DNA of 64,000 nucleotides from Escherichia coli (GTDB lineage Bacteria > Pseudomonadota > Gammaproteobacteria > Enterobacterales > Enterobacteriaceae), in NCBI RefSeq assembly GCF_003334355.1, contig NZ_QOWP01000008.1. The stretch is one strand, 5' to 3'. This document shows positions 28,801 through 31,800 of the stretch, in pieces. Each line of letters begins with the position of its first letter. Within the stretch, counting starts at the first letter, position 1. The position numbers are program-made.

Positions 28801-31800
28801 CAATGGCTGCGGCAGATCTTGTGCTGTGCGCATAATGCCTTTGTCATAGGCCAGCGCTATATAGCGTTCCACCATTAGCGGCCAGGCTTCTTTAGCGAGC
28901 ACGCGTACATCGTTGAGTAAACCGTAGCGCATCTCGCCGCGCCAGCCGGTGCGATGAGGAATACCCGCGAAGAAAGGCACTAATGCAGATTTGAAGGAGT
29001 TGGGTAAGACGTAGGCGCGGTCGTAGCGCTTTTCACGCAGGCTATGACCCAGTTTGCGGCGTTCGCCGATTTCCAGCGCTCCGTGACCGAGAGGCATAGG
29101 AATAGCTTCGTTAACTTCCGGCATCCGCGATAATAATGGACGGCACCATGCCGGTGCCATCACATCGATTATCGCCTGGGGATAGCGCGCCTGGAGCGTG
29201 CGATAGAGACTTTGCGACATCATCATGTCGCCAACCCAAGACGGGCCGATCACCAGTATTTTCATGCAGAGCTCTTATGCGTCGCGATTCAGCCAGGCCA
29301 TGTATTCCGTTACACCTTCAGCAACGGTTTTGAACGGTTTGTCGTAACCCGCCGCGCGCAGATTCGTCAGATCTGCCTGAGTGAACGCCTGATAGCGGCC
29401 TTTCAGTTTATCCGGGAACGGAATGTATTCGATCTGGCCTTTCTTGTGATAAGCCAGCGTAGCATCAGCTACAGCCTGGAAGGATTCCGCACGACCAGTA
29501 CCGAGATTGAAGATGCCGGAAACGCCATTTTCCAGGAACCACAGATTCACATCAGCCACGTCGCCCACATAGACGAAGTCGCGTTTGAAGTTCTCGCTAC
29601 CTTCAAACAGCTTCGGTGATTCACCGTTGTTAAGCTGGGTGTTGAGATGGAAAGCGACGCTCGCCATGCTGCCTTTATGGCCTTCACGCGGTCCATAAAC
29701 GTTGAAATAACGGAAGCCAACAATCTGCGAGTTCGCTTCAGGCAGGATTTGACGAACATATTCATCAAACAGGAATTTTGAGTAACCGTAGACGTTCAAC
29801 GGTTTTTCGTACTCGCGGGATTCAATAAAGTCGGAGGTGCGTCCGCCGTAGGTGGCCGCGGAAGATGCATACAGGAACGGGATTTCGCGCTCCAGACAGT
29901 AGTGCAGCAGCTCTTTGGAGTATTGATAGTTGTTATCCATCATATACTTGCCATCCCACTCGGTGGTGGAAGAGCATGCGCCTTCGTGGAAAATCGCTTC
30001 GACATCGCCGAACTCTTCGCCAGCCATAATCTGGATCAGGAAGTCTTCCTTATCCATATAGTCCGCGATATCCAGATCCACCAGGTTCACAAACTTGGTG
30101 CCGTCTTTCAGGTTGTCCACCACCAGAATATCGGTGATGCCTTTATCATTCAGGGCCTTAACGATGTTGCTGCCGATAAAGCCCGCGCCGCCGGTAACGA
30201 TGATCATAACTGTAACCTTCGAATTATGGAGTCAGAGACAATCTCAGACACGAATACTTCTATCATATCACTACACGGCGTTGGCTTCAGCCATTCGCCA
30301 AAAGTGAGATTGATGGACGTTATTTATCCTGAATTTTGCAGAAGTGTTAACGCGTCATCTCGTCGCGACCTATAAGTTTGGGTAATATGTGCTGGAATTT
30401 GCCCTGTCTGGAGAATCGCAATGCGTGGAGAATTTTATCAGCAGTTAACCAACGATCTGGAAACCGCACGGGCGGAAGGGTTGTTTAAAGAAGAGCGCAT
30501 TATTACGTCTGCGCAGCAAGCAGATATCACTGTGGCTGATGGAAGCCACGTCATTAACTTTTGTGCCAATAACTATCTCGGGCTGGCGAATCATCCGGAT
30601 CTGATTGCGGCGGCAAAGGCGGGAATGGATTCTCACGGTTTCGGCATGGCTTCGGTGCGTTTTATTTGCGGCACTCAGGACAGCCATAAAGAGCTTGAAC
30701 AAAAACTGGCGGCATTCCTGGGGATGGAAGATGCGATTCTCTACTCTTCCTGCTTTGATGCTAACGGTGGCCTGTTTGAAACGCTGCTGGGCGCGGAAGA
30801 CGCCATTATCTCCGACGCACTGAACCACGCGTCTATTATTGATGGTGTGCGTCTGTGTAAAGCTAAACGCTATCGCTATGCCAACAACGATATGCAGGAG
30901 CTGGAAGCACGTCTGAAAGAAGCGCGTGAAGCCGGTGCGCATCATGTGTTGATTGCCACCGATGGTGTGTTCTCGATGGACGGCGTGATTGCCAATCTGA
31001 AGGGCGTTTGCGATCTGGCAGATAAATACGATGCCCTGGTGATGGTAGACGACTCCCACGCGGTCGGTTTTGTCGGTGAAAATGGTCGTGGTTCCCATGA
31101 ATACTGCGATGTGATGGACCGGGTCGATATTATCACCGGTACGCTTGGTAAAGCGCTGGGCGGGGCTTCTGGTGGTTATACCGCGGCGCGCAAAGAAGTG
31201 GTTGAGTGGCTGCGCCAGCGTTCTCGTCCGTATCTGTTCTCCAACTCGCTGGCACCGGCCATTGTTGCCGCTTCTATCAAAGTGCTGGAGATGGTTGAAG
31301 CGGGTAGCGAGCTGCGTGACCGTCTGTGGGCGAACGCGCGTCAGTTCCGTGAGCAAATGTCGGCGGCGGGCTTTACCCTGGCGGGAGCCGATCATGCCAT
31401 TATTCCGGTCATGCTTGGTGATGCGGTAGTGGCGCAGAAATTTGCCCGTGAGCTGCAAAAAGAGGGCATTTACGTCACCGGTTTCTTCTATCCGGTCGTT
31501 CCGAAAGGTCAGGCGCGTATTCGTACCCAGATGTCTGCGGCGCATACCCCTGAGCAAATTACGCGTGCAGTAGAAGCATTCACGCGTATTGGTAAACAAC
31601 TGGGCGTTATTGCCTGAGGATGTGAGATGAAAGCGTTATCCAAACTGAAAGCGGAAGAGGGCATCTGGATGACCGACGTTCCTGTACCGGAACTCGGGCA
31701 TAACGATCTGCTGATTAAAATCCGTAAAACAGCCATCTGCGGGACTGACGTTCACATCTATAACTGGGATGAGTGGTCGCAAAAAACCATCCCGGTGCCG

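What the first reader, a model, noticed from the sequence alone, without database searches (positions are those of the whole stretch)
30208..30420. Only 213 bp between hldD and kbl; htrL (yibB) appears absent
As I recall K-12, htrL lies between kbl and rfaD/hldD. Here the two genes are divergent with a 213-bp spacer and no ORF, so htrL is missing or this is the ancestral state. The spacer must hold both the hldD (heat-shock-responsive) and kbl promoters.
Basis: partly seen in the sequence, partly recalled or inferred. Interest (0 to 1): 0.3.

Follow-up and report, generated by a model that had tools for sequence, protein, structure and literature searches.

The report
Ancestral kbl–hldD spacer without htrL
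This E. coli strain has the original, compact arrangement in which the threonine-breakdown gene kbl and the LPS-heptose gene hldD sit back to back; htrL, which separates them in the K-12 lab strain, is a foreign insertion carried by about a third of E. coli, so its absence here is ordinary.

Summary
hldD (29275-30207, -) and kbl (30421-31617, +) are divergent, separated by 213 bp with no htrL.

The window shows the ancestral and majority state:
- 3466 of 5426 complete E. coli genomes have the uninterrupted spacer and 1958 have htrL.
- E. albertii, Citrobacter, Enterobacter, Kluyvera and about 50 other Enterobacterales species have tdh-kbl directly divergent from hldD.
- In the closest genera the spacer is alignable and 213-216 bp long.

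In K-12, a 1283-bp, 36% GC segment replaces 61 bp of the ancestral spacer. That segment holds htrL plus its own allele of the hldD promoter. The same cassette lies at the same site in Enterobacter sp. Ag1, Citrobacter amalonaticus and Atlantibacter hermannii.

The window is R4 core type. htrL tracks mainly with R3 and laboratory K-12, but not strictly with core type.

The spacer holds:
- a conserved extended -10 promoter for hldD, found in 69 of 80 species;
- a leader hairpin with strong covariation and no Rfam match;
- conserved kbl promoter blocks.

No sigma-32 consensus rises above chance. The finding is ordinary and low in interest. The leader hairpin is a minor extra.

The parts
29275..30207 (-). 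[quoted passage not shown]
   Evidence: 310-aa ORF. 100% identical locus annotated rfaD in E. coli 720632.
30421..31617 (+). kbl (glycine C-acetyltransferase); first gene of kbl-tdh
   Evidence: 398-aa ORF, annotated kbl in matching genomes.
30208..30420 (.). 213-bp divergent intergenic spacer, the htrL-less ancestral haplotype
   Evidence: Present uninterrupted in 3466/5426 E. coli genomes. 213-216 bp and alignable in E. albertii, Citrobacter, Enterobacter, Kluyvera and others.
30208..30255 (-). Predicted hldD 5' leader (about 48 nt). 100% identical across these 48 bp between this haplotype and the K-12 htrL haplotype; the cassette junction lies at its upstream end.
   Evidence: BLAST of the window against K-12. 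The start site is inferred from the position of the -10 element and was not measured.
30231..30249 (-). Conserved hairpin in the hldD leader: GUCUGAGA-UUG-UCUCUGAC, 7 pairs plus one U.U mismatch in E. coli
   Evidence: RNAalifold on 53 species finds 7 pairs, all with compensatory changes. 91.9% of cells are paired against 70.4% in shuffles; 94 double-change cells against 31.6; 0/500 shuffles reach the observed value; slid controls give 26-46%. No Rfam match. The E. coli fold alone is not more stable than shuffles (z = -0.07).
30216..30220 (-). hldD Shine-Dalgarno sequence GAAGG; not inside the hairpin
   Evidence: Read from the sequence. The column is conserved in the alignment.
30262..30270 (-). 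hldD extended -10 element TGATATGAT (TGn + TATGAT)
   Evidence: The motif TGnTA[TC][GTA]AT lies 50-71 nt upstream of the hldD ATG in 69 of 80 Enterobacterales species; chance is 0.5%.
30285..30290 (-). -35-like hexamer CTGAAG, 17 nt upstream of the -10 hexamer, inside the conserved block GGCTGAAG
   Evidence: Conserved in Enterobacteriaceae and in all htrL-bearing haplotypes. It is a weak match to TTGACA, so its function is inferred.
30256..30316 (.). 61 bp with no BLAST match in K-12, where 1283 bp lie instead (htrL plus flanks). Contains the ancestral allele of the hldD core promoter.
   Evidence: breakpoints; K-12 segment is 36% GC; orthology to outgroups; diverged promoter allele in K-12.
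30317..30331 (+). Conserved block ACGTTATTTATCCTG (family consensus CGTGATTTATGCTG). It lies upstream of the kbl promoter and is the last ancestral block kept on the kbl side of the htrL cassette. A regulator site such as Lrp is a guess.
   Evidence: Alignment of 14 genera. Retained in K-12, Ag1 and C. amalonaticus.
30355..30363 (+). Conserved block TCATCTCGT in the -35 region of kbl
   Evidence: Nearly invariant across the 14 genera aligned (seen as ACGAGATGA on the hldD strand).
30383..30388 (+). Candidate kbl -10 hexamer TAATAT, inside the conserved TTTGGGTAATATGTGC
   Evidence: Conserved as TA[AG]NAT across genera. 32 nt upstream of the kbl ATG. Function inferred.
24956..25335 (.). R4 core-type diagnostic amplicon (waaW-waaX), which types the window's waa locus
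   Evidence: Published primers R1R4-R and R4-F (PMC13293308, Table 2) match exactly, 380 bp apart as published.

Best explanation
The window carries the ancestral and majority E. coli arrangement of the edge of the waa (LPS core) locus. The kbl-tdh operon and the hldD-waaF-waaC operon are transcribed divergently from one compact 213-bp control region. htrL (yibB) is not a core gene that was lost here. It is a low-GC accessory gene of the HtrL_YibB family (PF09612), with a predicted GT-A-like glycosyltransferase fold. It entered the spacer of some E. coli lineages as a roughly 1.28-kb cassette, most likely by homologous recombination through the conserved flanks. Laboratory K-12 happens to carry it. 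The cassette brought its own diverged copy of the hldD core promoter. It left intact the hldD leader (48 bp) and the kbl-proximal 104 bp. As a result both haplotypes keep a promoter for each operon. In this window, hldD is inferred to start about 47 nt upstream of its ATG, from an extended -10 promoter (TGATATGAT, with a weak -35 CTGAAG). The transcript begins with a conserved stem-loop that most likely stabilises or otherwise modulates the mRNA. kbl is inferred to start from a TAATAT -10 about 25 nt upstream of its ATG, with conserved upstream blocks available for regulators. Shown here: the gene order, breakpoints, population frequencies, outgroup states, motif conservation and base-pair covariation. 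Inferred: the start sites, promoter activity, the hairpin's role and the route of transfer.
For: Anatomy. K-12 comparison: shared 48 bp and 104 bp; 61 bp replaced by 1283 bp; cassette 36% GC against 49% for the window. Population: htrL in 1958/5426 genomes; uninterrupted spacer in 3466/5426; the sum is 5424. Outgroups: of the 80 Enterobacterales species loci, about 60 have tdh-kbl directly upstream of hldD. The gap is 213-216 bp in E. albertii, Citrobacter, Enterobacter, Kluyvera, Pluralibacter and Cedecea neteri. Salmonella is listed as 'kbl<>rfaD' in PMC10268841. The window's 61 bp match E. albertii and Citrobacter almost base for base. The cassette lies at the same site in Enterobacter sp. 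Ag1, C. amalonaticus and A. hermannii, with 76-81% amino-acid identity. All of these share the promoter allele GGCTGAAG(G/C)GAT..ATGT(G/A)ATGGTATGATTA. Promoter and hairpin. HtrL family and fold. htrL is treated as an accessory gene in a pan-genome study (PMC8303582).
Against: No experimental start site for hldD or kbl could be retrieved. The simple sigma-70 scan found no site with at least 9/12 matches in the spacer, so both promoters deviate from consensus in the -35. The E. coli hairpin alone is not thermodynamically exceptional. The 76-82% identity of HtrL between genera is not far below that of the neighbouring core proteins, so an old insertion with several losses is not formally excluded by identity values alone. 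Core-type frequencies come from sorted samples of 60 rows, not a full cross-tabulation.
Confidence: 0.92

Rival explanations
1. Secondary loss: the ancestor of this strain had the K-12-like kbl-htrL-hldD arrangement and htrL was later deleted, leaving 213 bp.
For: htrL occurs in several phylogroups and in four genera at the same site, so it could be old.
Against: A deletion would have to restore, base for base, a spacer of the same length and sequence as in E. albertii and Citrobacter. That includes the ancestral hldD promoter allele (GGCTGAAGCCAACGCCGTGTAGTGATATGATAGAAGT) rather than the cassette allele. No cassette remnant is present in the window. 64% of E. coli and nearly all outgroup species have the empty site.
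Confidence: 0.04
2. Ancient insertion in a common ancestor of Enterobacteriaceae, followed by many independent replacements with an empty allele through recombination. On this view neither state is 'ancestral' within E. coli.
For: HtrL orthologues at the same site in four genera are 76-82% identical. That is roughly the depth of inter-genus divergence. The linked promoter allele is shared.
Against: Only 1 of 80 species representatives carried htrL at the site. The empty spacer is conserved in length out to Cedecea neteri, and its elements are recognisable as far as Yersinia and Serratia. The cassette's GC content is foreign, 36%. Within E. coli, htrL is at least 99% identical to the K-12 copy in 1720 of 1958 carriers across K-12, O157:H7 and other lineages. 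That fits recent spread.
Confidence: 0.03
3. htrL is not absent from this genome but sits elsewhere, or a functional analogue replaces it.
For: Divergent YibB paralogues (59-61% identity) exist at other loci in Citrobacter (locus L090, CP056336.1, confirmed) and are named for some E. coli in the protein database (P0026).
Against: There is no HtrL-like sequence in the 64-kb window. K-12-like htrL DNA was found in 1958 genomes with a median of one place each. Every htrL-bearing genome whose annotation was inspected, and every sampled row listing yibB, has it between hldD and kbl. The rest of this genome cannot be examined from the window.
Confidence: 0.02

Closest known systems
E. coli K-12 MG1655 kbl-htrL-hldD region (b3617-b3619, NC_000913.3)
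   Same: kbl, hldD, the 48-bp hldD leader and the 104 bp upstream of kbl are 99-100% identical. The operons are divergent in both.
   Different: K-12 has 1283 bp (htrL plus flanks, 36% GC) where the window has 61 bp. The K-12 hldD core promoter is a diverged allele that travels with the cassette.
Salmonella, Citrobacter, E. albertii and Enterobacter kbl<>rfaD divergent intergenic region
   Same: Same gene order. Spacer of 213-216 bp in the genera examined here. Same conserved blocks: extended -10, leader hairpin, kbl -10 and the TCATCTCGT block. Salmonella adjacency is taken from PMC10268841.
   Different: Only nucleotide divergence. The middle of the spacer is variable.
E. coli LPS core types R1-R4 and K-12 (Amor 2000; Leclercq 2021, PMC8715443; Trofimova 2025, PMC13293308)
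   Same: The window's waa locus types as R4 with the published primers. The htrL indel lies at the edge of this variable locus.
   Different: These typing papers do not mention htrL or yibB (0 occurrences). htrL presence is correlated with core type but not determined by it. R3 (O157:H7) and laboratory K-12 have it. R4, R2, most R1 and K-12-core strain Ecol_AZ159 lack it. One R1 strain has it.
5'-terminal stabilising stem-loops of enterobacterial mRNAs (for example the ompA leader; Emory, Bouvet & Belasco 1992, from my own knowledge)
   Same: A short hairpin a few nucleotides from the predicted 5' end, conserved in structure rather than in sequence.
   Different: The start site is not measured and no stability data exist. 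About 6 unpaired nucleotides are predicted before the stem, which is at the limit for such protection. This is a working analogy only.
RNA thermometers (ROSE, fourU)
   Same: hldD transcription or expression is reported to rise with temperature (PMC8745692), and the leader is structured.
   Different: The conserved hairpin does not include the Shine-Dalgarno sequence or the start codon. The defining feature is therefore not met.

Membership tests
htrL-less (ancestral) kbl/hldD haplotype | kbl and hldD divergent, with an uninterrupted spacer of about 213 bp orthologous to that of outgroup genera | tested here: met
HtrL_YibB protein family (PF09612 / NCBIfam NF008462) | An ORF in the window matching the family | tested here: not met
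   tblastn of K-12 HtrL against the window: best E = 0.11. K-12 HtrL itself matches PF09612 at 9e-131 and NF008462 at 9e-166.
E. coli R4 LPS core type | The waaW-waaX primer pair R1R4-R/R4-F gives a 380-bp product, and primers for the other types are absent | tested here: met
   Exact matches at 24956 and 25335, 380 bp apart. No R1, R2, R3 or K-12 primer pair matches. A GT25 gene precedes waaL.
Sigma-70 extended -10 promoter (hldD) | TG one base upstream of a TATAAT-like hexamer, conserved in position | tested here: met
   TGATATGAT at 30262-30270 (-). Present in 69/80 species, chance 0.5%.
Sigma-70 extended -10 promoter (hldD) | Transcription start 6-8 nt downstream of the -10 element | not testable with these tools
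   No start-site data could be retrieved.
Sigma-32 heat-shock promoter | CTTGAAA-N11-16-CCCCATNT consensus upstream of hldD | tested here: not met
   The best match is 9/14 in the window spacer; 83% of shuffles do as well. The best match is 10/14 in the K-12 htrL-hldD spacer; 40% of shuffles do as well.
RNA thermometer | The structure sequesters the Shine-Dalgarno sequence or start codon | tested here: not met
   The conserved hairpin spans 30231-30249 and the SD lies at 30216-30220, outside it.
Any Rfam family in the spacer | Covariance-model match | tested here: not met
   No match at E <= 1 in 29800-30800. The only gathering-level hit in the window is JUMPstart at 18258-18296.
GT-A fold glycosyltransferase (for K-12 HtrL, the gene absent here) | Rossmann-like GT-A fold with an acidic DXD-type motif | tested here: inconclusive
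   AlphaFold model pLDDT 89.7. Foldseek hits to GT8 and GT6 enzymes and to RmlA have TM-scores of only 0.35-0.47. D232 and D233 are invariant and D234 nearly so. No activity data.

The most novel reading that the evidence does not exclude
The 19-nt stem-loop at the start of the hldD leader (30231-30249, -) may be an undescribed cis-acting RNA element, conserved by covariation across Enterobacterales. It would set the stability or temperature response of the hldD-waaF-waaC mRNA. Separately, because the htrL cassette carries its own hldD promoter allele, hldD regulation may differ between the two E. coli haplotypes.
Probability: 0.35. Interest if true: 0.4.

Novelty: already known. Interest (0 to 1): 0.15.

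Why it matters
The practical lesson is about reference bias. K-12 is the minority state at this locus, so annotation or regulatory models transferred from K-12 do not apply to about 64% of E. coli. Examples are 'the htrL/hldD spacer' and its H-NS and RpoD binding reported in PMC3946193. The result also shows that the kbl|hldD boundary of the waa locus is a recurrent landing site for LPS-related accessory genes: htrL in four genera and a different glycosyltransferase-like gene in C. youngae. It gives a testable map of the two divergent promoters and of a conserved leader hairpin for a heat-induced LPS operon. None of this overturns current understanding.

Tried and rejected
- The simple sigma-70 consensus scan of 30100-30520 gave 0 sites. 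Both promoters have poor -35 elements, so I relied on cross-species conservation instead.
- The sigma-32 consensus scan of the window spacer and of the K-12 htrL-hldD spacer gave chance-level scores. I therefore do not assign a heat-shock promoter.
- The Rfam search of the spacer found nothing.
- Single-sequence folding of the leader gave z = -0.07. Support for the hairpin is comparative only.
- I tried to read Raina & Georgopoulos 1991 (PMC328468), Nonaka 2006 (PMC1522076) and Thomason 2015 (PMC4288677) for mapped start sites. None is held.
- The Cappable-seq start-site table is truncated in storage. The SMRT-Cappable-seq supplements contain no rfaD, hldD or kbl entry.
- A literature search for the hldD/rfaD promoter or mRNA in enterics returned nothing relevant.
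- I considered a strict link between htrL and core type. I rejected it after finding K-12-core strain Ecol_AZ159 without htrL and an R1 strain with it.
- I considered CsrA-binding and terminator roles for the hairpin by eye. I dropped both because there is no conserved GGA in the loop and no U-tract.

Full report
**Observation.** The window has hldD at 29275-30207 on the minus strand and kbl at 30421-31617 on the plus strand. The two start codons face away from each other across exactly 213 bp, 30208-30420. The only ORFs of 40 aa or more that touch the spacer run antisense into hldD or kbl and look spurious. tblastn with K-12 HtrL finds nothing in the 64 kb (best E = 0.11). The RefSeq record of K-12 MG1655 shows kbl (b3617), a 274-bp gap, htrL (b3618, 858 bp), a 303-bp gap, then rfaD/hldD (b3619).

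**Breakpoints.** I aligned the window spacer and its flanks with the K-12 region.
- Identity is 99-100% through hldD and the first 48 bp upstream of its ATG (window 30208-30255).
- Identity is also 99-100% from 104 bp upstream of the kbl ATG onward (30317-30420).
- Between these, the window has 61 bp (30256-30316) and K-12 has 1283 bp.
- The K-12 segment is 36% GC, against 49% for the window and 51-54% for hldD and kbl.

The difference is not a clean insertion. The hldD-proximal end of the K-12 segment holds a diverged copy of the same promoter block, GGGCTGAAGGGATTCGGATGTGATGGTATGATTACAGAC. The window has TGGCTGAAGCCAACGCCGTGTAGTGATATGATAGAAGT at that position.

**Frequency in E. coli.**
- K-12 htrL DNA is present in 1958 of 5426 complete genomes, 36%.
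- The uninterrupted spacer, covered at 80% or more in one piece, is present in 3466 genomes, 64%.
- The two classes sum to 5424, so they account for essentially the whole species.
- Among the empty spacers, 483 genomes carry a diverged allele of about 84% identity.
- Examples of that diverged class, such as strain SCEC020007, have an R2-type waa locus and a Citrobacter-like kbl half of the spacer.

**Core types.** The published typing primers (PMC13293308, Table 2) place the window in type R4. R1R4-R matches at 24956 and R4-F at 25335, which gives the published 380-bp product. I searched with the window's waaQ-to-kbl segment and took a sorted, evenly spaced sample of 60 genomes. I then inspected representatives.

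| Class | Share of sampled rows | htrL |
|---|---|---|
| R4 | about 13% | absent |
| R1 | about 33% | absent, except strain 360D-1 (confirmed) and probably one more |
| R3, including O157:H7 | about 25% | present |
| Laboratory K-12 | about 8% | present |
| K-12 core, strain Ecol_AZ159 | about 10% | absent (213-bp spacer) |
| R2 | about 8% | absent |

PMC8715443 reports that B2 strains with a K-12 core belong to STc131. I did not type Ecol_AZ159 myself. htrL is therefore associated with core type but not determined by it. The two core-typing papers do not mention htrL. A pan-genome study lists htrL among variable waa-cluster genes (PMC8303582).

**Ancestral state.** A scan of one genome per species with HldD returned 80 Enterobacterales loci. 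About 60 of them have tdh-kbl directly upstream of and divergent from hldD. The gap is 213 bp in E. albertii and in the E. coli species representative. It is 214-216 bp in Citrobacter, Enterobacter, Phytobacter, Pluralibacter, Kluyvera, Pseudescherichia and Cedecea neteri, and 230-245 bp in Shimwellia, Yersinia and Serratia. Salmonella is listed as 'kbl<>rfaD' in PMC10268841. The window's 61 'specific' bases match E. albertii and Citrobacter almost exactly. The compact spacer is therefore ancestral and htrL is the derived insertion. A deletion of htrL could not recreate the ancestral promoter allele.

**The cassette elsewhere.** Only one of the 80 species loci, Enterobacter sp. Ag1, has htrL. 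It is 81% identical at the amino-acid level and sits at the same place and in the same orientation. A protein search found close YibB orthologues. The orthologues in Citrobacter amalonaticus (80%) and Atlantibacter hermannii (76%) also lie between hldD and kbl. All four htrL-bearing haplotypes share the cassette-type hldD promoter allele, with GGCTGAAG at -86 and TGGTATGAT at -64. The C. amalonaticus version of this allele is almost identical to that of K-12.

Within E. coli, htrL is at least 99% identical to the K-12 copy in 1720 of 1958 carriers. The simplest reading is a unit made of htrL plus the adjacent hldD promoter allele. This unit moves between lineages by recombination in the conserved hldD and kbl flanks.

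The site is used more than once. Citrobacter youngae has a different 383-aa glycosyltransferase-like ORF there. More distant YibB paralogues (59-61%) lie at unrelated loci.

**What HtrL is.** It matches Pfam PF09612 (HtrL_YibB, unknown function) and NCBIfam 'protein YibB'. Related proteins are named 'WlaTC/HtrL family glycosyltransferase' by NCBI. Family members occur in LOS and LPS loci of Acinetobacter (PMC4172580). An AlphaFold model built on 27 homologues is confident (pLDDT 89.7). It resembles GT-A fold enzymes and nucleotidyltransferases only weakly, with TM-scores of 0.35-0.47. Residues D232 and D233 are invariant. A sugar-nucleotide-dependent LPS-modifying role is plausible but unproven.

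**Content of the 213-bp spacer.** On the hldD strand, the extended -10 element TGATATGAT lies at 30262-30270. The -35-like CTGAAG lies 17 nt upstream, at 30285-30290. The motif TGnTA[TC][GTA]AT occurs 50-71 nt upstream of the hldD ATG in 69 of 80 species, against 0.5% in shuffles. This predicts a start site near 30255 and a leader of about 47 nt. That point coincides with the cassette junction.

The leader begins with a stem-loop at 30231-30249. A MAFFT alignment of 53 species gives a 7-pair RNAalifold consensus in which every pair shows compensatory changes. For example, one pair is GC 24 / CG 18 / AU 4 and another is AU 24 / GC 21. The controls are as follows:
- Paired cells are 91.9%, against 70.4% in column shuffles.
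- Double-change cells number 94, against 31.6.
- None of 500 shuffles reaches the observed values.
- Sliding the partner columns drops pairing to 26-46%.

The hairpin excludes the Shine-Dalgarno sequence (30216-30220). It has no U-tract, no Rfam match and no special stability in E. coli alone. I favour an mRNA-stabilising 5' stem-loop, with low confidence.

On the kbl side, three conserved blocks were found: TTTGGGTAATATGTGC (-10 TAATAT at 30383-30388), TCATCTCGT (30355-30363) and ACGTTATTTATCCTG (30317-30331). The last block is the final ancestral element kept next to the cassette.

**Heat shock.** The literature states that the hldD (gmhD/htrM) operon is induced at high temperature (PMC8745692, citing Raina & Georgopoulos 1991). 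I found no sigma-32-like promoter above chance in this spacer or in the K-12 htrL-hldD spacer. I also could not obtain the primary paper or any start-site dataset.

**Verdict.** The window shows the ancestral, majority arrangement and K-12 is the exception. This is ordinary accessory-gene variation that is visible in public annotation, so interest is low. The one mildly new item is the covarying hldD leader hairpin, which deserves a start-site map and a mutational test.

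Noticed in passing
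window 45897-50907 (-): The YadA-like trimeric autotransporter adhesin gene next to lldP is split into two overlapping ORFs (361 aa and 1339 aa). The region is 5011 bp, not a multiple of 3. It differs by 14 gap positions from the intact 5025-bp gene of strain 720632, so it is probably a frameshifted pseudogene or a phase or repeat-length variant.
   Followed up: partly
L072 4552-5703 (Citrobacter youngae): A 383-aa glycosyltransferase-like ORF, not HtrL, occupies the same kbl-hldD site in the same orientation as htrL. This edge of the waa locus therefore appears to be a recurrent insertion site for LPS accessory genes.
   Followed up: partly
L084 12010-12222 (E. coli SCEC020007, R2 core); 483 genomes: A diverged allele of the empty spacer has about 84% identity to the window and a Citrobacter-like kbl half. 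It is seen with R2-type waa loci. In that strain rfaD is annotated 48 nt longer (981 nt), and a 79-bp gap separates it from rfaF.
   Followed up: partly
window 30142-30156 (-), inside hldD codons: This is an exact copy of the 15-nt motif GCCCTGAATGATAAA reported under a Rob ChIP-seq peak at 'kbl<>rfaD' in Salmonella (PMC10268841). In E. coli it lies within the hldD coding sequence, 52-66 nt after the ATG.
   Followed up: partly
L090 5001-5858 (Citrobacter record CP056336.1); proteins P0019, P0026: Divergent YibB paralogues (59-61% identical to K-12 HtrL) exist at unrelated loci. L090 lies near dinI and a sulfatase-domain gene. P0026 is named from E. coli in the source database. The HtrL family therefore has more than one home in enteric genomes.
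   Followed up: partly
window 18258-18296 (+): A JUMPstart element (Rfam RF01707, 55 bits) lies upstream of waaQ, as expected for the RfaH-dependent waaQ operon. It is the only Rfam gathering-level hit in the 64 kb.
   Followed up: yes
window about 59800-64000 (-): Mapping from the annotation of strain 720632 suggests that this end of the window holds Rhs and polymorphic-toxin remnants together with yibA, yibG and an immunity-protein pseudogene. The coordinates were mapped by offset and not verified in the window.
   Followed up: no
L087 4219-6414 (E. coli OkiPb01706, R4 core): An IS5-family element (ISKpn26-like) interrupts the first GT8 gene (the waaT position) of an R4 waa locus otherwise like the window's. 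This predicts a truncated outer core in that strain.
   Followed up: no
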